Positions 15,985 through 54,681 of a stretch of DNA of 64,000 nucleotides are shown here, one piece after another. The stretch comes from Aliiglaciecola sp. (GTDB taxonomy: Bacteria; Pseudomonadota; Gammaproteobacteria; Enterobacterales; Alteromonadaceae). The position numbers and the translations under genes were made by a program. The notes below the pieces were generated by a model. It ran no database searches. It saw only the letters and a list, made by a program, of their open reading frames with translations, and was not told the origin of the DNA. The stretch is taken from NCBI RefSeq assembly GCF_039982535.1, contig NZ_JBDWYG010000039.1, positions 164,743 to 228,742 of the forward strand, in the 5' to 3' direction. Numbering within the stretch: position 1 is the stretch's first letter; each line of letters starts with the position of its first letter.

Positions 15985-16460
15985 GATTTTCCTAACTGCA
16001 AACTTCTAACTTTTACCATGCCAGATACGTTGGCTTCCGCCAAATCAACATTGATAATGCGTATTCCAAGGTTTTCCAAGCTTTGTAGCCAACTCACTAC
16101 ATCGTTAAAGGGCGCTTGATCTACCCATACTTTTAACTCGTCGCCCTGAGGCTGCATTCGCGATATGGCAATATTCACTCGTCCCGCAGTTTGATTAACC
16201 GCTTGTGGAAGAGAGCCGGTAAATACTGCTGTGCCACCATTACCACTGCGCATTTGGATCGCACGATTGGCGTTCTGTTTGAACCAAATTAGATCCGTTT
16301 GTTTAGTGGCTACTAATTTACTTTGCGTTTGTAATGACTTATCGATGGGCGCCCAAACTAAGTAATAAAACAGGAAGATGATTAGTAACACCCCAGATAC
16401 TGCGACTAAGACTCTTTCACGCTCTGACAGCTGATTAAATTTATCCAATAAATCTTTCAT
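15981..16460 (-). CDS. gspM: Type II secretion protein M
   Basis: LSERER plus TM, RMQPQG...VWVD...WL; operon position. Confidence 0.9.
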   Translation of the reverse strand: MKDLLDKFNQLSERERVLVAVSGVLLIIFLFYYLVWAPIDKSLQTQSKLVATKQTDLIWFKQNANRAIQMRSGNGGTAVFTGSLPQAVNQTAGRVNIAISRMQPQGDELKVWVDQAPFNDVVSWLQSLENLGIRIINVDLAEANVSGMVKVRSLQLGKS

Positions 16461-16461
16461 A

Positions 16462-17655: not shown

Positions 17656-18734
17656 TAAAGTACTCCTCCAAATTCTCGTCGTATGACAATCACTTGGTCG
17701 TTATTTTCTACTTTCAGTAGGGAAGACATAGCAAATGTGGCGTTATTGTAACGGGTCTTGGTATGTAATAGAAAGTATTCTGTTTTTACATCAAACCAAC
17801 TTTGTTGTTGGTCAGTTAAAGTGTGGTTAGTAAACAGTGTTTCAGCTAAAAAGTCCTGCACATTTTGATAGCCATCGGGTTCACGGTTACTAATGAGATT
17901 TTGTATGTCTGATACAGGCGCTCCGGTTAAAGCCGCTAACACCGGTGCTTTCTCTTCAGTGATGGTGTTCACGTTAATTTTCATTTCTGAGACATTGGGG
18001 ATTACACAGATCATTGGCAGCAATTCAGTAATCCACTGGGCATTTACACCGTTCACTAAACGGATTTCCGATTTGCTTACCATTAGGTTGTTAGCGGCTA
18101 AGTAAGGGTTCACTAACGCTGCGTAATCAGCATCTTCAGCGCCGCTTTGTGACATATTGTCATCTTGGTCTAGCCAATCAATTAAGGAGTCTCTGACCAC
18201 CTCTACCGAATAGTTATCTAATTCAGGAACGCTGCTAGAAAGCAGACGTTCGAAAGCTAAGGCTTCTTCAGGTGCGGTGTTAATATCGCCACTAGTGTTT
18301 CCACGCACAACCTCCTTTACTTCACTATTGCCGTTGCTATTATCACTATTATTATCATTTTGGCTACTTTGTTGTACTCGGTTAACCGAGTCAATGGCAT
18401 TCAAATTTAAACACGTTTGCATATCGGTTAACTGCGCTTGTATACCTCCCCCTTCTAATGGAAAAGTAAACTCTTCAGACCAACCTCCTTCTAACGAAAC
18501 CACATCTGAATCCGACTCTAATAATAGACGAACAGACTTGATAGCATATTGCTCGGCTCCCATTGCATACCAAAAGGCTTGGTTATTATCTTTAATATTG
18601 GTTGCGCGGGTTACTTGTAGCTGTAACCGAGAGCCCATTTCTGTGGCAATAATGGCAACCAAGGCAACAATCATTAACACAATGATTAATGCAACGCCTT
18701 GTTGCTTAGCTGGATGTAAAAACCGATTATTCAC
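17655..18734 (-). CDS. gspK: Type II secretion minor pseudopilin K
   Basis: QQGVALIIVLMIVAL prepilin leader, DWLDQD, KINVNT. Confidence 0.93.
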   Translation of the reverse strand: MNNRFLHPAKQQGVALIIVLMIVALVAIIATEMGSRLQLQVTRATNIKDNNQAFWYAMGAEQYAIKSVRLLLESDSDVVSLEGGWSEEFTFPLEGGGIQAQLTDMQTCLNLNAIDSVNRVQQSSQNDNNSDNSNGNSEVKEVVRGNTSGDINTAPEEALAFERLLSSSVPELDNYSVEVVRDSLIDWLDQDDNMSQSGAEDADYAALVNPYLAANNLMVSKSEIRLVNGVNAQWITELLPMICVIPNVSEMKINVNTITEEKAPVLAALTGAPVSDIQNLISNREPDGYQNVQDFLAETLFTNHTLTDQQQSWFDVKTEYFLLHTKTRYNNATFAMSSLLKVENNDQVIVIRREFGGVL

Positions 18735-19360
18735 GAGTCTTCAGTGCTCATTAAAAATTGTCGCTGAATTACGCCGAAGTCTTGGCTGGTGATGGTCACT
18801 CTGACGGCTACGGGAAGTGTGTCTTGAGCGTAGGAGTCATCCCAGCTTTCCGAATCTGCAGAATCTTCGTCAGCATTTAATAAAAATTGAACTTGAAAGT
18901 CCTCTATGTTGCTTAACAACACCCGGACTTTGGGTTCGAAACCAACGACGTTATCCACGTAATTACCAAACAGACGCTCTAACTTTCCTTCTTGCATACG
19001 GTAAGCAACACTTTGCAGTGTGCTACGCTGCAACATTAATTGCGGGTTCTGCCAACCTGTTCGTACAAATGCAAACCCATCGGCTTCGCTTTCTAATAGG
19101 TTTTTTTCCCCTTGCATTACTTGGCTGTTTTCTTGACCCTCTATGCGAACCGCTCGAGGAACAGCTTGCAGTAAATCCCGCTCTATAGTGAGCATGGCTC
19201 TTTGCAAGGTTTGTAACTTTTCAAAACGATTTTCAGATAATTCGTCACTGTCGATTACCGCGGTCATGACGCTGGTGGAAGCAATCCCAATAAGTGTGAA
19301 GATTGCTACTGCAATCATAATTTCAATTAGGGTGAATCCTTGATGCTTTAGTCCGTTCAT
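18731..19360 (-). CDS. gspJ: Type II secretion minor pseudopilin J
   Basis: QGFTLIEIMIA, RTGWQNP, LQSVAYR. Confidence 0.93.
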   Translation of the reverse strand: MNGLKHQGFTLIEIMIAVAIFTLIGIASTSVMTAVIDSDELSENRFEKLQTLQRAMLTIERDLLQAVPRAVRIEGQENSQVMQGEKNLLESEADGFAFVRTGWQNPQLMLQRSTLQSVAYRMQEGKLERLFGNYVDNVVGFEPKVRVLLSNIEDFQVQFLLNADEDSADSESWDDSYAQDTLPVAVRVTITSQDFGVIQRQFLMSTEDS

Positions 19361-19746
19361 CGGGTGATGCTCTTGGGTTGCGCCAGATAGGTGGTAACAC
19401 TGGTGATGGTGCGCTCGAAGTTTTCATCCTTACCCACGACGATTTCAACCCCGATTAAAGCGTCATCGGGTGTGGCTAGTAACTTCTGTTGCCAATACCA
19501 AGTTGTGCCCGCCATCTTTTCTTCACCCTTCAGATTGTCTTTTAATGGCCAGCTGTTTTCGATATTGATTTGGGTTAGGCGATTATTGGCAACCCAAGTG
19601 GCAAAAGTAATATCTTCTATTTGGCTAACGCCGTTTAAATGATCTGTGGCTGATTTCATGATAGCTGTGCCGGTAATAGCAAAGATTAACAGCGCTAACA
19701 TCACTTCTAGCAAGGTAAAACCTTGTTGCTGGTGGTTATGTCTCAT
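19357..19746 (-). CDS. gspI: Type II secretion minor pseudopilin I
   Basis: QGFTLLEVMLAL, ATWVANNRL. Confidence 0.93.
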   Translation of the reverse strand: MRHNHQQQGFTLLEVMLALLIFAITGTAIMKSATDHLNGVSQIEDITFATWVANNRLTQINIENSWPLKDNLKGEEKMAGTTWYWQQKLLATPDDALIGVEIVVGKDENFERTITSVTTYLAQPKSITR

Positions 19747-20369
19747 AAATCACTATCCAAGGGCCCTAACCTTTCTATGGGCACGGTATCATAGGAATTT
19801 AACTTGAAATAAACAGGATCATCATTAGAAAAGTCAGGTTCATACATCATGGTCAAGCTAAAAGGCGTTACGTCTCCGCTGGATAACAACATGATTTGCG
19901 GTGGCGGAAGTTTTTTCTCTTCTTCTTCATTGCCAATATCAACACGGTCTTCATCAAAGGATAGGGATTCGTCAAATATGCCATCGCTAAACAAATTGCT
20001 TTCTTCTACCCAAGGTAAATCGTCTAATTCTAATTCCAGCGAGTAGGGTTCGGGCAATTGATAACGGCCAAACGCTTGTTGTCCTTCCAGTAATTGCCAA
20101 TTTTGCTCATCATCTAACCACATAAATATGTATTCAGCGGTTTCAGGTTCGATGCGAATGCCAATTTCTTGCTGGTTTAATACTGCAAAATCAGAGGCCA
20201 TATCAACAACAATTTGGAAACGTTTGGCTTGCTTTTCTAACTCTTCAGATGGGGTGGGCGCAAAGTTATTAAACGATATAACACTTATTACAATTCCCAT
20301 AATTGCTAGCACCGCCATGATCTCGATGAGAGTAAATCCTGAATGGTACTTAGGTGACCGTGCTCGCAT
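19743..20369 (-). CDS. gspH: Type II secretion minor pseudopilin H
   Basis: SGFTLIEIMAV, PPQIMLLSSGDVTPF. Confidence 0.92.
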   Translation of the reverse strand: MRARSPKYHSGFTLIEIMAVLAIMGIVISVISFNNFAPTPSEELEKQAKRFQIVVDMASDFAVLNQQEIGIRIEPETAEYIFMWLDDEQNWQLLEGQQAFGRYQLPEPYSLELELDDLPWVEESNLFSDGIFDESLSFDEDRVDIGNEEEEKKLPPPQIMLLSSGDVTPFSLTMMYEPDFSNDDPVYFKLNSYDTVPIERLGPLDSDL

Positions 20370-20386
20370 TATGGGTAACTCAATGG

Positions 20387-20827
20387 TTAGTTAAGGTAAT
20401 CGCCAAGATTCCAATTACCAATATCGTCTTCTGTGCCTGGTTCGCCATCTGGGCCATTTGAAAACACATCGATTACGCCTAATTCACCAGGACTTAATAG
20501 CTGGTAAGGATTATCCCAAGGATCATTGGGTAGACGGTTAATGTAGCCGCCGGTGGGATAATTACGAGGAATAGGATCTATTGTAGGCTCACTCACTAAG
20601 GCTTCTAAACCTTGTTCTGTGGTTGGGAAGCGGTTATTACTCAATTTATAGCGAGTTAATGCACTTTCTAGGGATTGAATATCAATGGCTGCAGCTTTAC
20701 GTTGTGCCTCTTCTTGGTTTCCAAGAATTTGCGGCGCCACTAAACCTGCCATGATTCCTATAATCAATAACACCACCATTACCTCAATTAAGGTAAAACC
20801 AGACTGTCTAGGGTTGTTCTTTTTCAT
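20387..20827 (-). CDS. gspG: Type II secretion major pseudopilin G
   Basis: SGFTLIEVMVV, FPTTEQGLEALV, LPNDPWDNPY, DDIGNW. Confidence 0.96.
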   Translation of the reverse strand: MKKNNPRQSGFTLIEVMVVLLIIGIMAGLVAPQILGNQEEAQRKAAAIDIQSLESALTRYKLSNNRFPTTEQGLEALVSEPTIDPIPRNYPTGGYINRLPNDPWDNPYQLLSPGELGVIDVFSNGPDGEPGTEDDIGNWNLGDYLN

Positions 20828-22050
20828 TACATATTCACCATATTATTAAGCGCTAAAATCGGTTGTAGGATAGCCAGTACAATAAACAATACAATTGCTG
20901 CCATACTCACAATCAAAATTGGTTCAAAAACTTTCAACGAGACACCCACTAGGGCTTCAAATTCCCTATCTTGGTTGTCTGCTGCTCGTTTTAACATTTG
21001 TTGAAGTTCACCACTTCTTTCACCGGATGCAATCATATGCATCATCATTGGTGGAAACATTTTAGTTTTTTCTAAGGCTCCTCGTAAGCTAGAACCTTCT
21101 TTTACTTTAACTGCGGCCTCTGCCACAGCTTCTCTAATGTGCAAATTTTCGAGTACATCACCAGCTATACGCATGGCTTCTAATAACGGCACCGCACTGG
21201 CGGTTAAGATACTCAAGGTGCTAGCAAAACGCGCCGTGTTCAAACCTTTAGATACTTTACCAATTAAAGGCACTTCTAAAATAAACTTGTGATAGCGCTT
21301 TTTCATCAGTGGTTTTTGGAGTATTCGTTTAATGACAATAACCAAGACAACAATGACTACCATGGCTATTAGTCCATAGCTTTGCAACCAGGTACTGACT
21401 GATATTAAGATGCTAGTAATGGCTGGAAGTTCCTGCCCCATGTTGTCAAATTGTCCAACTATTTTCGGTACAACAACCGTTAGCAGTAGGAAAATAATAC
21501 CAAAGGCAAAAAATAACATAATGGCAGGATAGACCAGCGCCTGAGTGATTTGACTGCGAGTACGCTGGCTTTTCTCGGTGTAGTCAGCCAGTCGATTCAG
21601 CACTGTGTCTAAATGTCCCGACTTTTCCCCAGCGGCTACCATGGCACGAAAGAGCTCGTCGAATACTTGTGGGAACTCGCCCATGGCATCGGCCAGTGAG
21701 TGTCCTTCCACTACTTTACTGCGAACAGCCATCATCATATTTTTATGACGGGGCTTCTCACATTGTTCAGCAACGGCTAAAAGGGCTTCCTCGATGGGCA
21801 AAGCGGATTCAACTAAGGTAGCGATTTGGCGTGTTAAAAGGGCGAGATCGCTGGCAGATATTCCGCGCTTGAATAAGGTGAATCGATTTTTGTTGTCACG
21901 TTGCTGTTGTTCAGTTACCTGCTCAACTTCTAAAGGAATAAGCTCTAGTTCCCGTAATTGTTGACGGATATGCCGAGCATTATCACCCTCTAAAACACCA
22001 CTTTTGTTGCGACCAGATTGACTTATCGCTTTATAAGCATAGGCGGCCAC
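20827..22050 (-). CDS. gspF: Type II secretion inner-membrane protein F
   Basis: TRQIATLV, AGEKSGHL, GERSGEL; three TMs. Confidence 0.96.
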   Translation of the reverse strand: MAAYAYKAISQSGRNKSGVLEGDNARHIRQQLRELELIPLEVEQVTEQQQRDNKNRFTLFKRGISASDLALLTRQIATLVESALPIEEALLAVAEQCEKPRHKNMMMAVRSKVVEGHSLADAMGEFPQVFDELFRAMVAAGEKSGHLDTVLNRLADYTEKSQRTRSQITQALVYPAIMLFFAFGIIFLLLTVVVPKIVGQFDNMGQELPAITSILISVSTWLQSYGLIAMVVIVVLVIVIKRILQKPLMKKRYHKFILEVPLIGKVSKGLNTARFASTLSILTASAVPLLEAMRIAGDVLENLHIREAVAEAAVKVKEGSSLRGALEKTKMFPPMMMHMIASGERSGELQQMLKRAADNQDREFEALVGVSLKVFEPILIVSMAAIVLFIVLAILQPILALNNMVNM

Positions 22051-22052
22051 TA

Positions 22053-23627
22053 TTAATCCTCTCGGGTAACACGGAGTACTTCTTCTAAGGACGTAAATCC
22101 AAGAAGTACTTTGTTACAGCCATCTTCGCGAATACTCGGTGTGTTTTTACGAACGTGTTTTTCTATTGCCTGTTCGCCATGACCATTGTGCATAATGTCG
22201 CGGGTTGCTTCGTCAACAACCAATAGCTCGTGAATACCGGTTCGACCGCGATAGCCAGTTTGATTACAAGCTGCACAGCCTTTAGGACTGTATATCTCTT
22301 GGCTATTGGTGGCATGTTCTAAACCGAGGATTTGACACTCTGCTTCGCTCGGTAGGTGCGGAGTTTTACAGTCGGCGCAAAGAGTTCTTACCAAGCGCTG
22401 AGATAAAACGGCCAGTAAACTAGAAGATAATAAGAAGGGTTCAATTCCCATATCTTCAAGTCGTGTAATCGCCCCTGCTGCGGTATTGGTGTGTAACGTA
22501 GACAATACCAAGTGACCGGTTAAACTGGCTTGCACACCAATTTGCGCGGTTTCAAGGTCACGGATCTCACCAATCATGACCACATCTGGATCTTGACGCA
22601 ATATGGCCCTCAGGCCACGAGCAAAAGTCATGTCTACACGAGGGTTAACCTGAGTTTGACCAATGCCTTGTAAATCAAATTCGATGGGATCTTCTACCGT
22701 TAAGATATTACGGTCTTTAGAATTGATTTCACTAAGCCCTGCATACAAAGTGGTACTTTTCCCTGAACCTGTAGGGCCAGTTACTAAGATAATGCCATGG
22801 GGTTTACGAATCAAAGCGGAAAAGATTTCGCGATTTTTTAATGTCATGCCTAAATCCGTTAGATTTAGACGGGCATTATTTTTATCCAATAAACGTAAAA
22901 CCACTCGTTCGCCGTGACTTGAAGGCATGGTCGAAACCCGCACATCTACTGCACGTCCTGCGATTCTTAGGGTGATTCGACCATCTTGAGGGACGCGCTT
23001 TTCGGCAATATCTAACTTCGCCATGACTTTTATACGGGAAACCAACATGGACGAAAGTTTGCGGTTTGGTCGCAGTATTTCCCGTAATACACCATCTACC
23101 CGAAAACGCACAATTAATTGGTTTTCAAAGGTTTCAATATGAATGTCTGAAGCACCTTCTTTGATTGCTTCACTTAACATGGCGTTTATTAATTTGATGA
23201 TAGGCGCATCATCTTCATTTTCTAATAAGTCTTCGGTATCGGGCAGCTCTTCTGCTAAGGCAAATAAATCGCTCTCGTTACCTATATCTTCCATTAACTG
23301 CTTGGCAGCCGATGAGTCCCGCTGAAAGGCTTTGGTCAATAGATTTTCAAATTGTTCGTCGGCTATTTCTTTTAATTGGAAATCCGCCTGCAAGAAGCGT
23401 CTAACTTCAATAAAAATAGAAAAGTCAGTCATTGCCGTATGATATAAAATAGCCGGCTCTTCACCTGTATCTAACAACACTTTATGTCGCTTAGCGAAGC
23501 TAAACGCCAATTGTTTGTGCTGCTCTATTTCTTCACCTGGCGCAGCCTCAGCTGGCTGCACTGGGTCAACATCGAGGAGCGCCTGTTCTGACTTGAGCTC
23601 AGCATTATCAGCTGTTTCAATACTCAT
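22053..23627 (-). CDS. gspE: Type II secretion ATPase E
   Basis: [24 protein letters not shown], CxxC zinc motifs. Confidence 0.96.
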
Positions 23628-25693
23628 TAGTTCTCGCTTTCCTGCTCTTTTTCTAATAAATATTCGTCAAAAGTGGGTGGCAAGGCTAACTCATCGTCCC
23701 ATTCCGGTAATACAGGGGCCTCTTGAGTCGGCATTAATGGAATTCCCGCTGCACTGCGTTTTAATTGTTGTGCTCGAATATAGTTGTACTTTTTGTGGCT
23801 GATGCTATTCATAGTTGCGCCATCACGGACGATGGTCGGACGAATAAACACCATTAGGTTGCGTTTGGTTGTGCTGGTGGTAGTTGACTTAAACAAATTA
23901 CCTAAGAATGGAATATCTCCTAAAATAGGCACCTTAGAGATACTTTCTTGTACTTGATCGTCAATTAAGCCGCCTAAAACGATAGTGCCACCATCATCTA
24001 CAATTACCGTGGTTTTGATTTCACGTTTGTTAATCGCAATATCAACTGAAGTTGCGCCACTGACGCTGGACACTTCCTGTTCAATTAACAGTTGTACCGC
24101 ATCCCCTTCGTTAATTTGCGGGGTAACTTTAAGTTTAATACCTACTTCTTGACGTTCAACAGTTTGGAATGGGTTTGCGTTGTTTGAGCCTGTGGAAGAC
24201 CCTGTAATAATTGGCACTTCCTGGCCGACAATAAAGAAAGCTTCTTCATTATCTAGGGTAGTTAAATGTGGGGTAGACAACACATTAGAGTTTGTATCTG
24301 TGCTGACCGCTTGTAATACCGCTCCCCAACCATCTTTCACTACACCTACCAACAAACCGTTTAGGCCGCCAAGTAACGACGCCAATGAGGTAAAATCACC
24401 AGTGGTGACTGAGTCGTAGGAATAGGGGTCACCATCATCATCGAAACCTGTAGTGGTAGTTACTTGGTCTTCAGCTTCATCAGCAGCAACGGCTAACGAG
24501 CCAATTCCAACCACACCGTTAGTAAATTGTTGACCGCCACCGTCTTCACTTGCCCATTGAACACCTAAAGTGGTTCCGTCACCTTCATAAACTTCTACAA
24601 TGATGGCTTCAACCGTAACTTGGGCACGGCGAATATCTAATTGGCGTATAACTTCTTCTAATGAGCGCATCATGTCAGGCTCAGCTGTTATTACTAAAGC
24701 GTTTGAGTCTGGATGGGCATCAATACTCACTTCTCTATTACTCGAGGAGCTACTTCTGGAGTTAGCGCTAGATTGCCCGCCTTTTTCTTCTGCTTGAATG
24801 CTGGCACTGACACCTTGTAACACCTTAACTAAATCTTCAGCTTTGGCGTAATTGACAAAAATGACACGGGTATTACCACTGGTTTCCAGCTCTTGGTCCA
24901 TTTTGGTGATGAGATCAATGAGGCGTTTACGGCTTTTATTATCACCAGATACGATAACACTATTGGTTCGATCATCAGCAACAAGGCGGGGTTCTGATTT
25001 ACCCGTTGATTGGGCTTTGGTGGATGTTTTATTGATATTTTCAATAATTCTCACCATTTCCGATGCAGAGGCGAACTTAAGCTTAATAATTTCTACTTCT
25101 TCATCACCGGCCTGATCCACTCGCTCAATGATTTCCACCAAACGGTTCACAACCGCTGCTCGGCCGGTCAACATCATCACATTGGAAGGGTCATGACTGA
25201 CGACATTACCACCGCCAGCTTGGTCGTTAAGCTGTCGAAGTATAGGTGCAAGTTCTCTTACAGGTACGTTATAAACAGGTACTACACGGGTGATCATTTC
25301 GTCACCATCAAAAGGTGTGCCTTGAATAACTGGGATATTAGATGTTTTTGCGTCTTTGGCTCTGACTACTTTTAGTATGCCATTTGGCATTTCTACCACG
25401 GCAAAATCGTAGACTTGCAAAACGTTAAGGAAAAATTGGTAATATTGCTCTTCATTCAAAAGATCATAGCTGCGTACGCTTATCTTGCCGCGGACATCAG
25501 GGCTAACAATAATGGTTTTTTGCAGGTTTTTACCGACAATATTAATAAATTCGGAGATCTCAGCATTTTTAAAATTGGGTGAATACTCTTTCGCTGATGC
25601 CAAGGTTGACACCGTTAAAAACACTGCACACACTGCCAAACATAAGCCTCTGAATCTACTACGGCTTGTTTGCGTCATAGGGATAATCCTCAT
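23627..25693 (-). CDS. gspD: Type II secretion secretin D
   Basis: N-domains, [31 protein letters not shown]. Confidence 0.96.
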
Positions 25694-26637
25694 ATATCTT
25701 GTTCTTCTTCCCCATCAGGGAAATTTAAATACAAAGTGAGGACTTCCTCACTTCGACTAATTGATAGTTGGAGCGAATCTGCTTGATTTAATGCTGCTAA
25801 GGCTTCAATAGCCTGCTCAGGGTCAGTCAAATCCAATCCATTTATTTCTGTAATTATATCGCCTACTTTAAATCCGGCGCCTTTAAATAAGCTTGGGTTT
25901 TTACCAGGTGCAATTTTATAGCCGGCTATTAATCCATCTTGGCCTTGAACAGGTGAAACCATAAAATATTCAGTAAAGCCGCTTGGATTACGACGTATTT
26001 CTTTGGTTGTTTTCACCATATCAGCAGATAATTCTTTATGTTGTTCTTTTTCAGCCACTCTGTAGTCCACAAAGGGTTCAACAGGTGCTTGATAAGCCTG
26101 GCTTTCTTTCGAGTATTCTAACCCGTCTAACATTAAGGTTTCTCGCCTAGGACCATTTTTAATAATTACCCTATCTGCGAAGACTTCAACTAAGCTTGCG
26201 TTTGTACCATCAATTTCATCATCGATGCCATAGGTATTTTGTGAACCTCGGTTTTCAATAATTGCTGCACCAATGCCTGGCTCATCAGTTTCGACGACAC
26301 CGGTTAAGGTTAAGTTCAAACGAGTTTCAGGGGCTTCAGTGATCTCCTGTTTGACCGGGGCATTTTCTTTTGCAGTTAAGTCGCCAAACAAGTTTAAACT
26401 TTTTAATTGCGACAAACTTACCCGTGAACTTGAATTACTCGAATTATTGCCAGTTTGATTGGTTTGAAAACTCGGTTTTGCGGTAGATTCTGGTTCTGGA
26501 ATTAGACGCCAAGTCATCTCAGCTAAAAAAGCCAATAGATACAAAACCAACAAAATAACCACCAACAGATTAATCTGTGATTGATATTTGCTAATTTGCA
26601 GCCATATTTGACTTAAGTTTGTACTACTAAGGCTCAT
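25690..26637 (-). CDS. gspC: Type II secretion protein C (HR plus PDZ)
   Basis: TM, APETRLNLTLTGVV, C-terminal PDZ (GFKVGDIITEING). Confidence 0.94.
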   Translation of the reverse strand: MSLSSTNLSQIWLQISKYQSQINLLVVILLVLYLLAFLAEMTWRLIPEPESTAKPSFQTNQTGNNSSNSSSRVSLSQLKSLNLFGDLTAKENAPVKQEITEAPETRLNLTLTGVVETDEPGIGAAIIENRGSQNTYGIDDEIDGTNASLVEVFADRVIIKNGPRRETLMLDGLEYSKESQAYQAPVEPFVDYRVAEKEQHKELSADMVKTTKEIRRNPSGFTEYFMVSPVQGQDGLIAGYKIAPGKNPSLFKGAGFKVGDIITEINGLDLTDPEQAIEALAALNQADSLQLSISRSEEVLTLYLNFPDGEEEQDI

Positions 26638-44785: not shown

Positions 44786-46072
44786 TTAATTTTGTTCTCT
44801 AGCAATGGCGCGATAAGCAATATCATCTCGATAAAACATACCGTCCCAATTAATTTTATTGACTAAATTATAGGCATTTTTTTGTGCTTCTGTGACTGAA
44901 TTTCCTAATGCGGTGGCACACAATACTCGTCCACCATTAGTAGTGACCTTATTGTCCACTAATTTAGTACCAGCATGGAATACCTTGCCTTCTGTTTGCG
45001 AGGCAAGATCAAGCCCTAGAATTTCTTCACCTTTTGCATAACTGCCAGGATAACCACCTGCCGCTAGCACCACGCCTACAGCCGCTCTAGAATCAAATTT
45101 AATATTGGCTTCGTCAAGTTTGCCAGCTGTGGCTTGCAAACAAAGATCAACAATGTCTGATTGTAGGCGCAACATGATAGGTTGAGTTTCAGGGTCACCG
45201 AATCGACAATTGTATTCAATAACTTTGGGGGTACCGTCAGCCATAATCATCAGTCCAGCATATAAAAAGCCAGAATAAGGATTGCCTTCACTTGCCATGC
45301 CTTCCACCGTGGGATAAATCACTTCGTCCATAATTCGCTGATGGATTTCAGGTGTTACCACAGGTGCCGGCGAGTACGCTCCCATGCCGCCAGTGTTCGG
45401 ACCGGTATCACCGTTGCCTACACGCTTGTGGTCTTGGCTGGTGGCAAAAGACAGGACGTTTTTACCATCTACCATTACGATGAAGCTGGCTTCCTCACCG
45501 TCTAAAAATTCTTCAATAACCACACGGCTACCGGCGTCACCGAAAGCATTTCCTGCTAACATATCACGAATAGCATCTTCAGCTTCTTGTTCAGTCATGG
45601 CAACAATAACGCCTTTACCCGCGGCTAAACCGTCGGCTTTAATAACGATTGGTGCACCTTTTTGTTTTAAATATGCCAGAGCAGGTTCAATTTCAGTAAA
45701 GTTTTCATAGTCACCTGTTGGGATTTTATGACGGGCAAGAAAATCTTTAGTAAAGGCTTTTGAGCCTTCCAACTGTGCCGCAGCCTTAGTCGGCCCAAAA
45801 ATGGTTAAGCCTTTGGCTTGAAATGCATCAACTACGCCTATGACCAATGGAGCTTCTGGACCTACTATGGTTAAATCAATGGCATTTTGTTCTGCGAATT
45901 CGAGTAACCCGCCGACGTCGTCTGCTTGGATATCGACATTGACCAATTTATCTTCTATTGCGGTGCCGGCGTTCCCAGGCGCTACATAAACGGTTTCTAC
46001 ATAGTCATTTTGAGCTGATTTGAATGCTAGAGCGTGTTCGCGACCACCGCCGCCGATGATAAGTATTTTCAT
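44786..46072 (-). CDS. purD: Phosphoribosylamine-glycine ligase
   Basis: GGGGREHALA, KADGLAAGKGV, QDHKR, TGGMGAYSP, EYNCRFGDPE. Confidence 0.98.
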   Translation of the reverse strand: MKILIIGGGGREHALAFKSAQNDYVETVYVAPGNAGTAIEDKLVNVDIQADDVGGLLEFAEQNAIDLTIVGPEAPLVIGVVDAFQAKGLTIFGPTKAAAQLEGSKAFTKDFLARHKIPTGDYENFTEIEPALAYLKQKGAPIVIKADGLAAGKGVIVAMTEQEAEDAIRDMLAGNAFGDAGSRVVIEEFLDGEEASFIVMVDGKNVLSFATSQDHKRVGNGDTGPNTGGMGAYSPAPVVTPEIHQRIMDEVIYPTVEGMASEGNPYSGFLYAGLMIMADGTPKVIEYNCRFGDPETQPIMLRLQSDIVDLCLQATAGKLDEANIKFDSRAAVGVVLAAGGYPGSYAKGEEILGLDLASQTEGKVFHAGTKLVDNKVTTNGGRVLCATALGNSVTEAQKNAYNLVNKINWDGMFYRDDIAYRAIAREQN

Positions 46073-46148
46073 GAATCGATTATCTTATTAACTGATTGAG
46101 TAAGGAATGGAGCTTCATAATGGTGGGAATTGTACAGAATAAAAGCGC

Positions 46149-46176
46149 AAAAAGCGTGTTTAACTGCACGCTTTTT
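46149..46176. terminator. Intrinsic terminator after the small PspB/C-like gene
   Basis: AAAAAGCGTG / CACGCTTTTT stem. Confidence 0.8.
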
Positions 46177-46211
46177 ATAGTGAATTTGCTTCTAGGTTAT
46201 TAATTAGCAGA

Positions 46212-46433
46212 TTATAATTTGGAAAATTCCTGCTTAAGCTGATATTTGTCGTCGGTAACAATAGCCTCAAGGGTGTTAAGGCGTTCTTTAATTGCTTTCA
46301 ATTCAGCTTCTAAGGCCGCCACATTGCCCGACCCTGCTTCTAATTTTACCTTTGCATCCATCATTTTTTGTTTATGCGCAAAAACCATCCCCAAAATAAC
46401 AATGGGTAAAACAAATACTAGTAAAATGTCCAT
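46212..46433 (-). CDS. Small membrane-anchored coiled-coil protein, PspB/PspC C-terminus-like
   Basis: N-terminal TM, then LKAIKERLNTLEAIVTDDKYQLKQEFSKL resembling PspB/PspC C-termini; GAGGAAG RBS; own promoter and terminator. Confidence 0.7.
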   Translation of the reverse strand: MDILLVFVLPIVILGMVFAHKQKMMDAKVKLEAGSGNVAALEAELKAIKERLNTLEAIVTDDKYQLKQEFSKL

Positions 46434-46480
46434 ATATCTTCCTCTTTGAGACTGTCGTTGTGTGCTTTGATACTTATAAA

Positions 46481-46496
46481 AGCAAATTGAATACCA
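46481..46496 (-). promoter_or_regulatory. Sigma54 promoter (-24/-12)
   Basis: - strand TGGTATTCAATTTGCT, exact GG-N10-GC spacing, 48 bp upstream of the ATG at 46433. Confidence 0.72.
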
Positions 46497-46513
46497 ATTG
46501 AAAAATACAATAA

Positions 46514-46526
46514 AATCAAATGCTTG
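46514..46526 (+). promoter_or_regulatory. IHF site
   Basis: AATCAA-ATGC-TTG is an exact WATCAANNNNTTR, with a 5' A/T tract, between the sigma54 site and the UAS. Confidence 0.65.
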
Positions 46527-46555
46527 TATATTGATCGTTTTGTTGTTCTGGTTTT

Positions 46556-46583
46556 TAGCACGATTAATTAGTCAAAAATACTA
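46556..46583. promoter_or_regulatory. Candidate PspF-like upstream activating sequence
   Basis: TAG-TCAAAAATA-CTA (TAG-N9-CTA) at 46569-46583 plus a degenerate TAG-N9-TTA at 46556; about 100 bp upstream of the predicted TSS. Confidence 0.45.
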
Positions 46584-46668
46584 CTTAGCTGTGTCATTTG
46601 CAAAGTTCTTCGATCCGTCCTCCGTTTACAGAAGGTTGAACACCTGCAAACGGGATTCAACCGCCAAT

Positions 46669-47127
46669 CTATTTCTTTGTAGCGCGGGCTTCAGCCCGTG
46701 GGGGAAAACCACACCAAACCTGCACGGGGCTAAAGCACCCGCCTACAGGCGATGCACAGGTTAATCTATTTCTCTGTAGCACGGGCTTCAGCCTGTGGGG
46801 TAAAACACAGCTAACCTGCACGGGGCTAAAGCACCCGCCTACAGGTGATGCACAGGTTAATCTTTTTTCTGTAGCACGGGCTTTAGCCCGTGGGAAAAAC
46901 CACACCCAACCTGCACGGGGCTAAAGCACCCGCCTACAGACAATGCACAGGTTAATCTATTTTCTGTAGCATGGCCTTCAGGCCATGAAAAAAACACAGC
47001 CAACCTGCACGGGGCTAAAGCACCCGCCTACAGACGATGAACAAGTTAATCTATTTCTCTGTAGCACGGGCTTCAGCCTGTGGGGTAAAACACAGCCAAC
47101 CTGCACGGGGCTAAAGCACCCGCCTAC
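46669..47127. repeat. REP/BIME-like tandem array, five units of about 95-97 bp
   Basis: Units start at 46678, 46775, 46870, 46965, 47060: GTAG-CACGGGC-TTCA-GCCCGTG-type REP, spacer, inverted CGGGGCTAAAGCACCCGCCTACA. Confidence 0.9.
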
Positions 47128-47159
47128 GGGGGCCTAAGGTAAAGACATATTTTTGAGGC

Positions 47160-47187
47160 AAAAAAAATCCGGCGATAGCCGGATTTT
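47160..47187 (-). terminator. Intrinsic terminator after purH
   Basis: AAAATCCGGC-GATA-GCCGGATTTT with a long T tract on the - strand. Confidence 0.85.
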
Positions 47188-47209: not shown

Positions 47210-48793
47210 TTAGTGTTTGAAATGACGCATGCCAGTGAACACCATAGCAATGTCATGTTCATCCGCTGCGGCAATGACTTCGTTATCACGCATTGAACCA
47301 CCTGGCTGAATCACTGCAACTATTCCCGCTGCTGCTGCAGCATCGATACCGTCTCTGAATGGGAAGAATGCATCAGATGCCATTACTGAACCTTTTACTT
47401 CAAGGTTTTCATCTGCGGCTTTTATGCCTGCGATTTTGGCAGAATAGACACGGCTCATTTGCCCTGCGCCCACACCGATTGTCATACTATCTTTGCAGTA
47501 CACAATGGCGTTGGATTTAACGTATTTAGCCACTTTCCAAGTGAACATAAGGTCTTTTAACTGTTCTGCTGTAGGTTGACGTTTGCTGACAACCGTTAGG
47601 TCTTGCTCTTCAACCATCCCGAAATCACGCTCTTGCACTAACAAACCACCGTTGACACGCTTAAAGTCGTATCCATCAGTTAGTTGACCTAACCAGTCAC
47701 CACATTCTAATAAGCGAACGTTTTTCTTAGTGGCTACTATTTCAATGGCTTCTTGACTCACTTTAGGAGCAATAATAACTTCAACGAATTGACGATCCAC
47801 TATCGCTTGAGCGGTTTTAGCATCTAACTCTCGGTTAAACGCAATAATGCCACCGAATGCTGAAGTAGGGTCAGTTTTGTATGCGCGGTCGTATGCCGTA
47901 AATATATCGTCGCCTAAGGCTACGCCACAAGGGTTTGCGTGTTTAACAATAACACAGGCGGGTTCTTCAAATTCTTTTACACACTCTAAAGCGGAATCCG
48001 TATCAGCGATGTTATTAAATGATAACTCTTTTCCCTGAAGTTGCTTAGCGGTGGCAACTGAGGCTTCTTGAATTTGATTCTCAACATAAAATGCAGCTGA
48101 CTGATGGCTGTTTTCGCCATAGCGAAGATCTTGTTTTTTGCTTAACTGCATATTGAACGTGCGCGGGTACTCGCTATCTGCATCACTAGAATCGGAATCA
48201 ATACGAGCACCAAAATAGTTGGCGATCATGCCGTCGTATTCTGCCGTGTGCTCGAAGGCTGCGATAGCTAAATCAAAACGGGTTTTGTAAGTTAATGAGC
48301 CGTTGTTCTCGGCCATTTCAGATAATACACGTTGATAGTCTTTGGCATTCACAACTATGGTCACATCTTTATGGTTTTTTGCCGCAGCACGCACCATAGT
48401 GGGACCGCCAATATCAATGTTTTCGATGGCATCTTCTAAAGAGCAATCTTCATTGGCTACAGTTGCAGCGAAGGGGTATAAATTAACCACAACTAAATCA
48501 ATTGCTTGAATGTCATTTTCTTGCATTACTGCTTCATCGGTGCCGCGGCGAGCTAAAATGCCACCATGAACTTTTGGATGCAATGTTTTTACTCTGCCGG
48601 CCATAATTTCGGGGTGACCCGTATAATCAGATACTTCAGTTACATTAAGGCCTGCGTCAGCAAGTAATTTGGCAGTGCCACCTGTGGAGAGCAGTTCAAC
48701 TCCTTGTTCAACTAAGGAAGTGGCAAATTCAACGATGCCAGATTTATCTGAAACACTTAATAGGGCGCGGCGGATGGGTTTAGCAGATGTCAT
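47210..48793 (-). CDS. purH: Bifunctional AICAR transformylase/IMP cyclohydrolase
   Basis: [54 protein letters not shown]. Confidence 0.98.
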
Positions 48794-51631: not shown

Positions 51632-52423
51632 ATGATAAACAATAAATTTTTTATTGCGCTGTTTTGTCTGACAAATTTGATAGTGTCAAGCTTCGCATGG
51701 GCTCAACAAAGCTTATTTGTAGCCATAGGTTGGGATAAGCCGCCTTATGTGATGAGCAACGCTCGAGCTGGTTTTGAAGTTGAGATGTTACGAGACATTA
51801 TGCAAAACATCGGCTACGAGGTGCAATTTATCCAAATACCTTATGGTCGCTCGTATGATATTTTTAATATGAATAATATTGATGCCGTTGCCACTTTGAG
51901 TAGCAAACGTCAGGCTAAGCAGGTACACCTTTCCGATGCTTATATTCAATACCAAAATGTAGTTGTAACCTTAGCCTCTTCCAACATAGTGCTAGATAGC
52001 GTTGAAGATATGTCGAATGTATCAACCGTTGGTTTCCAGTCGGCTTTTAAGCTCTTAGGGAGTGAGTTTACTAAAATGGCGACAGACAACGCCGCCTATA
52101 GAGAAATACCTGACCAAGGACGTCAAGTTAAATTACTATTTAGTAAAAAGACCCAAGCTATCGTATTGGATGTCAATATCTTCAATCACTTAAGTCGCAC
52201 AATAATAAATACAGCTGATGAACAACCCGTTATTATTCATCAGCTTTTTGCACCTAGCCTTTATAGAGTAGGGTTTCGTGACCCAGAAATTCAGGTTAAG
52301 TTTGATCAAGCCCTAAGCGCGTACTTAACATCTGAAAAGTACGCCACCTTGAGCAAAAAGTACCATTTTTATAATGCCCTTATTGCTACAGAAAACAGCT
52401 CAACATTACCTTTTACGGAATAA
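51632..52423 (+). CDS. Orphan periplasmic substrate-binding protein (family 3-like)
   Basis: Signal peptide; KPPYV, GFEVE, PYGR, VGFRD; no permease gene adjacent. Confidence 0.78.
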   Translation: MINNKFFIALFCLTNLIVSSFAWAQQSLFVAIGWDKPPYVMSNARAGFEVEMLRDIMQNIGYEVQFIQIPYGRSYDIFNMNNIDAVATLSSKRQAKQVHLSDAYIQYQNVVVTLASSNIVLDSVEDMSNVSTVGFQSAFKLLGSEFTKMATDNAAYREIPDQGRQVKLLFSKKTQAIVLDVNIFNHLSRTIINTADEQPVIIHQLFAPSLYRVGFRDPEIQVKFDQALSAYLTSEKYATLSKKYHFYNALIATENSSTLPFTE

Positions 52424-53918
52424 TAAAGGCTCTAATATCTTCAACTAGTGATTTGAGGGATGGTTCGTGAATGTACATCATATGTCCAGCCTCATAATAC
52501 TTCATCGTGACACGGTTAAGATCTATGCCATGATGATTCATGGAATGTTCAGTCGCAAAAAACGGAGTGGCTAAATCGTAATAACCATTTGCTACAAATA
52601 CTCTGAAGTCTTTATTTTGACGCATGCCTTTTGAAATGAACGGCGTAACGTTCATGAATCCTTGGCTACGTGCAGATTTCCCATATAACCAATTCCAATT
52701 CACAAATACTTCGCCACTTAATACATGATATGGCTCAGAGCGCTTCACATTAATGTCATTGGCAAAGTAATGTTGTATTGCCGCAGTATAAGCACCATCA
52801 ATTGCATAAGATGCTGGGTCAGCTTCAAAGTGGTCTACGACAATGTTAGCGTCTTCACCAAGGTATCGGCTGTCTAAGCGACCAATCACTTTGCCTTCGT
52901 CTCGCATAAGCTCTTTCATAAACAAGAATTCGCTAACACGTAGTTTGGATTGTTCGATGTATTGTTTTTTTAAGCCCGTATATGCATGCAATTTATTAAT
53001 GACGTTGCTCACTTCTTCAGGGGTAGCGAGCGCGCCTTTTAATAATACTGTGGCATATTCATTAAGAGCAAAATCTCGCGTATCAGCTATGAAGTCCTGC
53101 AAGCTATTCCACTGAGATTTATTCGGCACTTTATTGTGATACCAAGCTGTTGCGGCATAAGTTGGCAAGAATGTGACATAGGGTAAGTCATTACCTTCTG
53201 TGAAGTCTCCGGTTTGAAAATCAATAATAGATGAAATCAATAAAATTCCGTTTAAATCGATGGATCCCCAACCTTCCTGCAGTTCTTTGACCATTGCACC
53301 AGCGCGGGTGGTTCCATAACTTTCACCGGCTAAATATTTAGGAGAGTTCCAGCGGTTATTTTCAGTGATGTACACTCGCACAAATTCAGCAAGTATCTCC
53401 GCGTCTTCTTTGACTCCCCAAAATGCTTTGCCTTCATATTCGCCAAGGGGCTTTGAAAATCCGGTACCAACAGGGTCAATAAAGACTAAATCTGCAACAT
53501 CCAAAAGACTTAACGGATTATCTTTCAGATTGAAAGGCGCAGCCCCCATAGGTTCAGCATCACTTGGTAATACCACTCGTTTAGGGCCGAACAATCCCAT
53601 GTGCATCCAAACTGACGATGAACCTGGGCCACCATTGAATACAAATAATAAGGGTCTAGATTCAGTATTCTTTTTATCTGTTCGGGTATAAGCAATATGG
53701 AATATGCTGGCTTTAGGTTTGCCTTTAGCATCTAGTAAGTGGCTGTCTCCGGCACTGACTTTGTACTTAATAGAGGTGCCGTTAAATTTTCCTTTGTGTT
53801 CGGTAACACTCATTTGTGCTTCGGGAACAGATTGCGGACTTTCGCTATTCGGTTCATTTGCTTCAACGTGAAATGTTAGCAACAGAACAGTGCTTAATGT
53901 CATTATAATTTTTTTCAT
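52413..53918 (-). CDS. S10 family serine carboxypeptidase, secreted
   Basis: FNGGPGSSS, FIDPVGTGFS, GESYG (Ser), GYYDLATP (Asp), YEAGHMMY (His). Confidence 0.92.
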   Translation of the reverse strand: MKKIIMTLSTVLLLTFHVEANEPNSESPQSVPEAQMSVTEHKGKFNGTSIKYKVSAGDSHLLDAKGKPKASIFHIAYTRTDKKNTESRPLLFVFNGGPGSSSVWMHMGLFGPKRVVLPSDAEPMGAAPFNLKDNPLSLLDVADLVFIDPVGTGFSKPLGEYEGKAFWGVKEDAEILAEFVRVYITENNRWNSPKYLAGESYGTTRAGAMVKELQEGWGSIDLNGILLISSIIDFQTGDFTEGNDLPYVTFLPTYAATAWYHNKVPNKSQWNSLQDFIADTRDFALNEYATVLLKGALATPEEVSNVINKLHAYTGLKKQYIEQSKLRVSEFLFMKELMRDEGKVIGRLDSRYLGEDANIVVDHFEADPASYAIDGAYTAAIQHYFANDINVKRSEPYHVLSGEVFVNWNWLYGKSARSQGFMNVTPFISKGMRQNKDFRVFVANGYYDLATPFFATEHSMNHHGIDLNRVTMKYYEAGHMMYIHEPSLKSLVEDIRAFIIP

Positions 53919-54195
53919 AGTGTTCTACTTGTTATTGTTCTAATTGAAAATAGTGTTTGATAAACATTTTACCCAAGCAAATTTAATTTGGATATGGTTA
54001 ATGCCCCCTTACCTTAAAAATCCCTAAGCCAAAGGTAAAGTAAAGTTAACAGTCTGATTATAAGATTAAAAATCGAATATAAATTCAACAATAATATGCA
54101 TGGAAGCAAATTTTATATTGCCAAAATTTCTGTATTAATACTGTACAGCAGCAAATTAAATACCAGATTTTATTGAATTAATTTACAGATTTAAT

Positions 54196-54223
54196 TTGAC
54201 ACAACCTTAAAGTAAGGTATGCT
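54196..54223 (+). promoter_or_regulatory. Sigma70 promoter of the cold-shock gene
   Basis: TTGACA-16 bp-TATGCT, implying a 5' UTR of about 140 nt. Confidence 0.65.
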
Positions 54224-54368
54224 TCAAGCAGCTAAGAAAACCTCGTTAAAGATCTACATGTTCGTTGTTATATCGTTGTTCTTCGTCCTGTCGTTTTTAA
54301 GTTCGGTCTCTTTTTATGCTAAACCGCCAATTTTGGCACCCAATTTAATTTTTACAGGAAGATATAAT

Positions 54369-54578
54369 ATGTCTGATAAAGTAGTAGGAACTGTTAAGTG
54401 GTTCAACGAAGATAAAGGTTTTGGTTTCATCGAGCAGCAAGGCGGCCCTGATGTTTTCGCTCATTTCCGTTCAATCGTTGGTGACGGCTTCAAGACTCTT
54501 AAAGAAGGTCAAAAAGTTGAATTCACTATCGGCCAAGGCCAAAAAGGTCCTCAAGCTGAGAACATTCAAGTTATCTAA
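54369..54578 (+). CDS. Cold-shock protein (CspA family)
   Basis: [15 protein letters not shown] (RNP1), VFAHF (RNP2); start MSDK at 54369 with ACAGGAAG RBS; ORF-track N-extension is spurious. Confidence 0.95.
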
Positions 54579-54622
54579 TTCAATTTATCGTTAGACTTGT
54601 CTGACGAATTGATAGAAAACTC

Positions 54623-54652
54623 AAAAAAGGCAATCTTATGATTGCCTTTTTT
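54623..54652. terminator. Bidirectional intrinsic terminator
   Basis: AAAAAAGGCAATC-TTAT-GATTGCCTTTTTT. Confidence 0.88.
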
Positions 54653-54681
54653 ATTGTCTTTTTTTAGGTTATTTGCACTTA

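What the first reader, a model, noticed from the sequence alone, without database searches (positions are those of the whole stretch)
46212..46583. Orphan PspB/C-like gene with a complete sigma54-IHF-enhancer promoter
Seen: a 73-aa TM plus coiled-coil protein ending LEAIVTDDKYQLKQEFSKL. Upstream, in the expected order, are a GG-N10-GC promoter (46481-46496), an exact IHF consensus (46514-46526) and a TAG-N9-CTA palindrome (46569-46583). It has its own terminator. Known: pspA and pspG promoters use sigma54, IHF and PspF sites of similar TAG-N9-CTA form; PspC ends in a similar RLxxMExYVTS...F..L helix that signals to PspA. Inference: an unlinked, undescribed Psp regulon member that could be an effector (pspG analogue) or a PspC-tail mimic tuning PspA. 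The secretin GspD, a classic Psp inducer, is encoded in this window.
Basis: partly seen in the sequence, partly recalled or inferred. Interest (0 to 1): 0.66.

Follow-up and report, generated by a model that had tools for sequence, protein, structure and literature searches.

The report
Orphan PspB-like phage-shock regulon gene
A 73-residue membrane protein gene between purH and purD of an Aliiglaciecola genome belongs to an unstudied relative of the envelope-stress proteins PspB and PspC, and it carries its own conserved sigma54 promoter with an enhancer that looks like the one on pspA promoters.

Summary
The features are conserved in six Aliiglaciecola orthologues and in a second clade that is about 50% identical.

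The protein is one transmembrane helix followed by a cytoplasmic leucine-zipper helix. It belongs to a large family with no curated model. Profile comparison links the family to PspB (97%) and to the C-terminal tail of PspC (96%). It does not reach the PspB or PspC curated cut-offs.

In at least 17 other lineages a family member is the last gene of pspF<->pspA-pspB-pspC(-DUF2807)-X. There it sits beside a true PspB and a PspC that keeps its own tail.

The window gene is unlinked. Its enhancer consists of two tandem 15-bp sites, T[AG]G[TC]-N7-[AG]C[CT]A, 5 bp apart. All nine pspA promoters I examined have this same arrangement.

Best reading: a PspF/sigma54/IHF-dependent accessory Psp component. 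It is an orphan regulon member like pspG but is not homologous to it. It probably pairs with PspA, PspB or PspC through its zipper helix.

Not shown: that Aliiglaciecola encodes PspF, any expression data, or the direction of the effect.

This is a new variant of a known kind, of moderate interest.

The parts
46212..46433 (-). CDS of the 73-aa protein. Residues 3-19 form a TM helix (ILLVFVLPIVILGMVFA), followed by the basic stretch HKQKMMDAKVK and then a helix with heptad residues L45/L52/V59/L66/L73 and the core motif R51-x3-L55-E56-x-I58-V59-T60-D61.
46438..46444 (-). Ribosome-binding site GAGGAAG, 4 nt before the ATG.
   Evidence: Read directly.
46481..46496 (-). Sigma54 -24/-12 element TGGTATTCAATTTGCT. 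The predicted transcription start is near 46470.
46514..46526 (+). IHF consensus AATCAAATGCTTG, between the enhancer and the -24 element. It is conserved as AAWCARN4TTR in orthologues and in clade 2.
46549..46563 (-). Enhancer site 2, TCGTGCTAAAAACCA (7 of 8 specified positions).
46569..46583 (-). Enhancer site 1, TAGTATTTTTGACTA (8 of 8; perfect palindrome TAGT-N7-ACTA), 87 nt upstream of the -24 TGG.
46599..46604 (-). Invariant TTTGCA block upstream of the enhancer; role unknown.
46148..46177 (-). Intrinsic-terminator-like hairpin after the gene.
47164..47187 (-). Terminator-like hairpin after purH, which separates the gene from purH transcription.

Best explanation
The gene encodes a single-pass inner-membrane protein, N-terminus out and C-terminus in. 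It belongs to a distinct, uncharacterised branch of the PspB superfamily, and its cytoplasmic leucine-zipper helix is of the PspC-tail type. It is transcribed on its own from a sigma54 promoter. The inferred sequence of events is as follows. PspF, freed from PspA under inner-membrane stress, binds two tandem 15-bp sites about 55-90 nt upstream of the -24 element. IHF bends the intervening DNA. The bound PspF then drives open-complex formation. The product then joins the membrane Psp machinery, and its helix pairs with PspA and/or the PspB-PspC complex, so it feeds back on the response. I lean towards a gain-setting or PspA-recruiting role, because the PspC tail is the element that binds PspA in the on state. 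Shown here: the homology, the operon linkage of the family in other lineages, the conservation of the promoter parts, and the shared enhancer grammar. Inferred: PspF as the activator, induction by stress, the binding partners, and the direction of the feedback.
For: 1. Homology. hhalign of the family against PspB gives 97% probability, E 1e-10, over the TM and helix. Against PspC tails it gives 95.8%, E 7e-9. NCBIfam gives local hits to the PspC C-terminus (8.5e-6) and to PspB (1.8e-4).
2. Operon linkage. A family member lies directly after pspC, or after pspC-DUF2807, in psp operons with divergent pspF. This is seen in L041, 43, 44, 47, 50, 54, 57, 58, 60, 61, 64, 65, 67, 68, 72 and 81 and in L090, the latter from precomputed Pfam.
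3. Promoter conservation. The sigma54 element, IHF site and enhancer are conserved in 6 Aliiglaciecola species and in a clade about 50% identical. Seventeen of 62 distinct stand-alone family genes have a strong sigma54 match within 200 nt, against 3.4% expected.
4. Enhancer motif. A motif search on 6 psp promoters alone returns T[GA][GA][TC]-N7-[AG]C[CT]A. Nine of 9 pspA promoters carry two such sites 20-21 nt apart. So do all 7 Aliiglaciecola-type promoters, including the L012 metagenome contig. The background rate of such pairs is 3.7e-4 per nt.
5. Literature. PspF binds the pspA enhancer (two UAS) and the pspG enhancer (one UAS) with IHF (PMC3709507). The PspC C-terminal domain binds PspA in the on state (PMC5596341). 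The PspC zipper is needed for PspA interaction (PMC3068692). Alteromonas stellipolaris, in the same family as Aliiglaciecola, has PspA, PspB and PspC (PMC6361997).
Against: - No pspF, pspA or other enhancer-binding protein gene is in the 64-kb window or in the flanks of the orthologous loci, and I could not search an Aliiglaciecola genome for them.
- There are no RNA data: the four RNA runs tried hold no reads for this region.
- The half-site consensus is short and degenerate, and I saw the window's site before I formulated it.
- Clade-2 left half-sites are weaker (TTGT).
- A 56%-identical orthologue in the same purH-X-purD position (L010) has no sigma54 promoter, so the regulation is not universal.
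Confidence: 0.6

Rival explanations
1. The promoter depends on sigma54 but is driven by an enhancer-binding protein other than PspF. The protein would then be a small membrane stress protein outside the Psp circuit in this genus.
For: PspF was not demonstrated for Aliiglaciecola. The half-sites are short. The gene lies between purine genes, not near psp genes.
Against: The same 15-bp palindrome, the same tandem spacing and a similar distance to the -24 element are found at 9 of 9 pspA promoters. The family is co-operonic with pspABC in other lineages.
Confidence: 0.2
2. It is simply this organism's PspB, relocated away from pspA and pspC.
For: UniRef calls some orthologues 'Phage shock protein B'. 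The architecture is PspB-like and the FVLPI transmembrane motif is shared with E. coli PspB. hhalign gives 97%.
Against: Scores are far below the PspB cut-offs: Pfam 19.7 against 25.6, and TIGR02976 21.7 against 51.7. It lacks the invariant PspB C-terminal P-x-W-R and has the PspC-type VTDxxYxLxxEF..L instead. In psp operons the family coexists with a true PspB.
Confidence: 0.1
3. The product is a negative-feedback element. Like the PspB cytoplasmic domain, it binds the PspC tail and silences signalling as it accumulates.
For: Full-length similarity is highest to PspB. The PspB and PspC cytoplasmic domains interact to silence the response, as shown by Flores-Kim & Darwin 2016 (cited in PMC5596341).
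Against: The C-terminal 25 residues match the PspC tail rather than PspB. Nothing here tests the direction of the effect.
Confidence: 0.25
4. The promoter-like elements are not functional, and the gene is read through from purH or from an unrecognised sigma70 promoter.
For: The L010 orthologue has only a 114-bp spacer after purH and no sigma54 element.
Against: In the window a purH terminator and a 475-bp repeat array separate the genes. The four elements are conserved as discrete blocks across species. No sense-strand sigma70-like site was found.
Confidence: 0.05

Closest known systems
PspB (PF06667 / TIGR02976), E. coli b1305
   Same: About 75 aa. N-terminal TM helix with an FVLPI-type motif, a basic stretch, and a cytoplasmic helix with the R-I/L-x2-L-E-x-I-L/V core. 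hhalign probability 97%.
   Different: It is below all curated cut-offs. The C-terminus is VTDDKYQLKQEFSKL rather than LDxExPxWR. It is not located between pspA and pspC. In operons it is an extra gene alongside a true PspB.
C-terminal leucine-zipper domain of PspC (TIGR02978 positions 65-121)
   Same: Compare R-L-x2-L/M-E-x-I/Y-V-T-D/S-D-x-Y/F-x-L-x2-x-F-x2-L, which runs to the C-terminus. The local E-value is 8.5e-6 and hhalign gives 95.8%.
   Different: It has no PspC domain (PF04024). The helix is anchored by its own PspB-like TM segment.
pspG, the orphan PspF target of E. coli
   Same: A monocistronic small membrane-protein gene unlinked to the psp operon, with a sigma54 promoter, an IHF site and a PspF-type site (TAGTCAAATTCACCA in pspG).
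   Different: The proteins are not homologous (hhalign 1%). pspG has one UAS, whereas this promoter has two in tandem, as pspA does (PMC3709507).
'PspB duplicates in the operon' and 'PspC fused to a divergent PspB', as described by Ravi et al. 2024 (PMC11237479)
   Same: These describe extra or divergent PspB domains in psp operons, which is what the operon-linked family members look like.
   Different: That paper does not describe stand-alone copies with their own enhancers. I could not check that its example accession belongs to this family.

Membership tests
PspB (PF06667 / TIGR02976) | Score at or above the curated family cut-off | tested here: not met
   Pfam 19.7 bits against 25.6. TIGR02976 21.7 against 51.7. 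NF006993 19.4 against 90. Other family members also stay below the cut-off.
PspB (PF06667 / TIGR02976) | N-terminal TM helix plus cytoplasmic helical domain, about 75 aa | tested here: met
   Sequence. The AF2 model is one helix spanning residues 2-72. The hhalign alignment covers both the TM and the helix.
PspB (PF06667 / TIGR02976) | Conserved C-terminal L-D-x-E-x-P-x-W-R | tested here: not met
   P69, W71 and R72 are invariant in the 7 PspB sequences and absent from the family.
PspB (PF06667 / TIGR02976) | Encoded between pspA and pspC | tested here: not met
   The gene lies between purH and purD, and no psp gene is in the window.
PspC (PF04024 / TIGR02978) | PspC domain (amphipathic helix plus TM, GVCxGxAxYF) | tested here: not met
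   No PF04024 hit. The NCBIfam hit covers only profile positions 65-121.
PspC (PF04024 / TIGR02978) | C-terminal leucine-zipper tail | tested here: met
PspF/sigma54 regulon | -24 GG / -12 GC element at a suitable distance from the start codon | tested here: met
   46481-46496, conserved in orthologues.
PspF/sigma54 regulon | IHF site between the enhancer and the promoter | tested here: met
   Exact consensus at 46514-46526, conserved.
PspF/sigma54 regulon | PspF-type upstream activating sites | tested here: met
   Two tandem sites match the motif and the spacing found at 9 of 9 pspA promoters. This is by comparison only; binding was not tested.
PspF/sigma54 regulon | The genome encodes PspF and PspA | not testable with these tools
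   Absent from the window and from the locus flanks. The PspB profile search returned only Pseudomonadales-type hits.
PspF/sigma54 regulon | RpoN- and PspF-dependent, stress-induced expression | not testable with these tools
   No transcriptome holds this organism.
PspG / PspD | Sequence homology | tested here: not met
   hhalign 1.1% (PspG) and 0.06% (PspD).

The most novel reading that the evidence does not exclude
The family is a fourth conserved signalling component of proteobacterial Psp systems. It would act as a membrane-anchored copy of the PspC tail supplied in trans, setting the gain of the PspA/PspF switch. In Alteromonadales it has left the operon and multiplied into at least two paralogues (purH-purD and tadA-adjacent), each with its own PspF enhancer. 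PspF regulons would then be larger and more modular than the E. coli picture of the pspA operon plus pspG.
Probability: 0.35. Interest if true: 0.65.

Novelty: new variant of a known kind. Interest (0 to 1): 0.5.

Why it matters
In the E. coli and Yersinia model systems the PspF regulon is described as the psp operon plus pspG. How PspB and PspC pass the signal to PspA is still debated.

This family is widespread: 406 representative clusters, and about 1200 clusters at 90% identity. It is operon-linked in many lineages and separately enhancer-controlled in others. It consists of little more than the interaction helix on a membrane anchor.

That makes it a natural minimal tool for asking which partner the PspC-type tail binds, and whether feedback through that tail sets the amplitude of the response. 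It also supplies a comparative definition of the PspF enhancer: two 15-bp palindromes 20 bp apart.

Tried and rejected
- **RNA evidence.** Public runs that hold this DNA are metagenomic DNA only. The four RNA runs tried gave zero reads.
- **Finding an Alteromonadaceae psp operon.** tblastn of a marine PspA against plasmids found only enterics and a few others. The PspB-profile search listed only Pseudomonadales-type proteins. The contexts of Colwellia, Litorilituus, Alteromonas and Paraglaciecola family members held no psp genes.
- **Structure.** The AF2 model is a single helix (pLDDT 74). I judged it uninformative and ran no fold search.
- **Homology to PspD and PspG.** Rejected. PspD was tested because it occupies the same operon slot in E. 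coli.
- **Split PspC.** I considered that the family might replace a PspC that had lost its tail. This is rejected because operon PspCs keep their own tails.
- **Second sigma54-like match.** The match at 54150-54165 has no PspF-type site upstream and is probably chance.
- **FleQ- or NtrC-type sites.** Compared with the enhancer by eye and from memory only; they do not fit.

Full report
**Observation.** The minus strand at 46212-46433 encodes a 73-aa protein, MDILLVFVLPIVILGMVFAHKQKMMDAKVKLEAGSGNVAALEAELKAIKERLNTLEAIVTDDKYQLKQEFSKL. It lies between purH (47210-48793) and purD (44786-46072). Reading upstream on the same strand, the elements are:
- GAGGAAG, a ribosome-binding site;
- TGGTATTCAATTTGCT at 46496-46481;
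- an exact IHF consensus at 46514-46526;
- TAGTATTTTTGACTA at 46583-46569.

A terminator-like hairpin follows the gene (46177-46148), and another follows purH (47187-47164).

Taken singly the motifs are weak evidence. The strict sigma54 pattern occurs twice in the window against 0.6 expected. The IHF consensus occurs ten times. Conservation is what gives them weight.

**Organism and orthologues.** The closest proteins are from Aliiglaciecola species, at 95-62% identity. Five genomes keep the fis-purH-X-purD arrangement. I aligned the six upstream regions. The surrounding sequence has diverged, but four blocks survive:
- TTTGCA;
- TAGTAYTTTTRACYAAT plus the next 20 nt;
- AAWCARN4TTR;
- TGGTAYTYAWYTTGCY.

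This phylogenetic footprint argues that the promoter parts are functional.

**The protein family.** Pfam and NCBIfam give only sub-threshold hits. PspB scores 19.7 bits against a cut-off of 25.6. The C-terminal third of PspC gives E 8.5e-6. TIGR02976 (PspB) scores 21.7 against 51.7.

An exhaustive profile search finds 406 representative clusters, and the word-indexed search finds about 1200 clusters at 90% identity. Nearly all are 70-90 aa: one hydrophobic N-terminal helix, a basic stretch, and a helix ending in R-[ILV]-x2-L-E-x-I-V-T-D-x2-Y-x-L-x2-E-[IF]-x2-L.

Profile-profile comparison gives 97% probability (E 1e-10) against PspB over the full length, and 95.8% (E 7e-9) against PspC C-terminal tails. 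This agrees with Ravi et al. 2024 (PMC11237479), who state that the PspC tail is a divergent PspB domain.

The family has the PspB architecture, including the FVLPI transmembrane motif, but a PspC-type C-terminus. It lacks the P-x-W-R that is invariant in PspB. It is not related to PspD or PspG. AlphaFold gives a single long helix. The basic residues after the TM segment predict an N-out, C-in topology, as in PspB (inference from the positive-inside rule).

**Link to Psp from gene order.** I examined 74 metagenome loci holding family members. In at least 16 of them the gene lies directly downstream of pspA-pspB-pspC, with pspF divergent. This was found by tblastn with the E. coli proteins and confirmed by reading the ORFs. 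In L090 the precomputed Pfam annotation shows Sigma54_activat <-> PspA_IM30, PspB, PspC, X.

Several operons insert a DUF2807 (Toastrack-type) gene between pspC and X, and L054 has two copies of X. In these operons PspB is canonical and PspC keeps its own tail. The family is therefore an additional component, not a split PspC and not a replacement PspB. The named top hits to the true-PspB profile built from these loci are Pseudomonadales MAGs.

**Stand-alone copies and sigma54.** A second clade (L013-L036 and others, 45-52% identical, marine) is also monocistronic. One example lies between ABC-permease genes and a Na+/H+ exchanger. This clade keeps the same layout: a GG-N10-GC element (typically TGGTCTAAACTATGCT) about 60 nt before the ATG, an IHF-like AACTCATTGTTTATT, and a conserved upstream block.

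A second paralogue, divergent from tadA, occurs in Alteromonas pelagimontana, Paraglaciecola and an unnamed 3.8-Mb genome. It too has sigma54 elements: TGGCAAAGCGCTTGCA, TGGTCAAATATTTGCT, TGGTCAATAATTTGCT and TGGTTAGAAACTTGCT.

I then applied a stringent score, which misses many clade-2 sites. Seventeen of 62 distinct stand-alone genes have a match within 200 nt, against 3.4% expected (P about 1e-11; relatedness among the loci inflates this).

There is one exception. The 56%-identical orthologue in L010 keeps the purH-X-purD position but has a 114-bp spacer and no sigma54 element.

**The enhancer.** I took the 110 nt upstream of the sigma54 element from nine pspA promoters (E. coli and eight metagenome loci) and from E. 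coli pspG. A seed-and-refine motif search on six non-redundant promoters, without any family promoter, gave two related solutions. One is the 15-bp palindrome T[GA][GA][TC]-N7-[AG]C[CT]A. The other is the junction between two such sites. Examples of the tandem arrangement:
- E. coli pspA: TGATGAAATTCGCCA-CTTGT-TAGTGTAATTCGCTA
- L062: TGACGAAAATGACCA-GTTAA-TGGTTAAAAAGGCTA
- L047: TGGTTAGAATCGCTA-ACACGA-TGGTTTTTCTCACCA

All nine pspA promoters have such a pair (at least 14 of 16 specified positions, start-to-start 20-21 nt), beginning 100-122 nt upstream of the -24 TGG. pspG has a single site. This matches the literature count of two UAS for pspA and one for pspG (PMC3709507).

The window promoter reads TAGTATTTTTGACTA-ATTAA-TCGTGCTAAAAACCA (15 of 16), beginning 87 nt upstream of the TGG. 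Every Aliiglaciecola orthologue has a pair at the same place. The substitutions stay within the motif; for example, A. litoralis has TAGTACTTTTAACCA-ATTAA-TGGTGACAACTAGCA. Most clade-2 promoters and the tadA-adjacent paralogues also have a pair.

The background rate of such pairs over 668 kb is 3.7e-4 per nt, or about 4% per 100-nt window.

Two caveats apply. The half-sites are short, and I had seen the window's palindrome before I wrote the degenerate pattern, although the motif finder recovered it independently. I also could not check the E. coli sites against published footprints.

**What is missing.** No pspF, pspA or other enhancer-binding protein gene lies in the window or in the orthologous flanks. 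I could not search an Aliiglaciecola genome.

Literature shows that Alteromonas stellipolaris, in the same family, has PspA, PspB and PspC (PMC6361997). The only public runs that hold this DNA are metagenomic DNA, and the four RNA runs tried gave no reads. Sigma54 and PspF dependence is therefore an inference from sequence.

**Mechanism.**
- Shown: a PspB-superfamily membrane protein with a PspC-type tail; a family that is co-operonic with pspABC elsewhere; and a conserved sigma54/IHF/tandem-UAS promoter with the grammar of pspA promoters.
- Inferred: under inner-membrane stress PspA releases PspF. PspF occupies the two sites, IHF bends the DNA, and sigma54-RNA polymerase opens the promoter near 46470. 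The product accumulates in the inner membrane.
- Literature context: the PspC C-terminal domain binds PspA in the on state, and the PspB and PspC cytoplasmic domains bind each other to silence the system (PMC5596341 and references there; PMC3068692).
- Consequence: a free-standing, membrane-anchored copy of that helix would either titrate PspA to the membrane, or free the PspC tail from PspB (positive feedback and effector recruitment). Alternatively it would behave like PspB and damp signalling.

I lean to the positive-feedback reading because the most conserved C-terminal residues follow PspC rather than PspB. The evidence does not decide the direction. GspD, a possible Psp inducer, is encoded 20 kb away, which is circumstantial.

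**Comparison with known systems and novelty.** The gene works like pspG in being an orphan, monocistronic PspF-type target, but it is not homologous to pspG. It is homologous to PspB and to the PspC tail, but it fails the membership tests for both families. No Pfam or NCBIfam model covers it at threshold.

Ravi et al. mention PspB duplicates in psp operons. I found no description of stand-alone copies with their own enhancers, and no experimental work on this family. I rate it a new variant of a known kind and moderately interesting.

Noticed in passing
window 46673-47148: Five tandem copies of a ~95-bp unit lie between the purH terminator and the enhancer. Each unit contains GC-rich hairpin-like segments (GGGCTTCAGCCC, CGGGGCTAAAGCACCCGCCTACAGG). 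The array occurs only here in the window. In metagenome runs it reaches 10-50 times the flanking depth, so the unit is dispersed in the genome or genomes, like a REP/BIME element. Related sequence sits upstream of the orthologues in L001 and L002.
   Followed up: partly
window 54150-54165 (-): A second strict sigma54-like match, TGGTATTTAATTTGCT, lies about 230 nt upstream of a secreted S10 serine carboxypeptidase gene (52413-53918) and next to the cspA thermoregulator on the other strand (54201-54654, Rfam RF01766). It has no PspF-type site upstream and is probably chance.
   Followed up: partly
L009 6001-6234; L086, L087 7001-7243; L088 7001-7237: A second paralogue of the family lies divergent from tadA (purL-mltF-...-tadA <-> X2) in Alteromonas pelagimontana, two Paraglaciecola genomes and an unnamed 3.8-Mb genome. 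Each has its own sigma54 element and candidate tandem PspF-type sites. Whether the window's organism has this paralogue is unknown.
   Followed up: partly
L010 5886-6001: An orthologue at 56% identity, in the same purH-X-purD position in a 3.8-Mb genome, has only 114 bp upstream and no sigma54 element. The same genome's tadA-adjacent paralogue (L088) has one.
   Followed up: no
L047 4151-4801; L061 3923-4651; L064 1648-2454; L054 4323-4550 and 4783-5040: In several marine psp operons a DUF2807 (Toastrack-type) gene sits between pspC and the family member, and L054 carries two tandem family copies. PspC in these operons has a long, highly charged N-terminal extension.
   Followed up: partly
window 46599-46604 (-): The TTTGCA hexamer just upstream of the enhancer is invariant in all six Aliiglaciecola promoters. 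It does not fit the PspF-type site pattern, and its role is unknown.
   Followed up: no
window 15223-26637 (-): A run of same-strand ORFs looks like a type II secretion cluster. Pfam confirms GspC (25690-26637), the secretin GspD (23627-25693) and GspE (22053-23627); the remaining ORFs were not scanned.
   Followed up: partly
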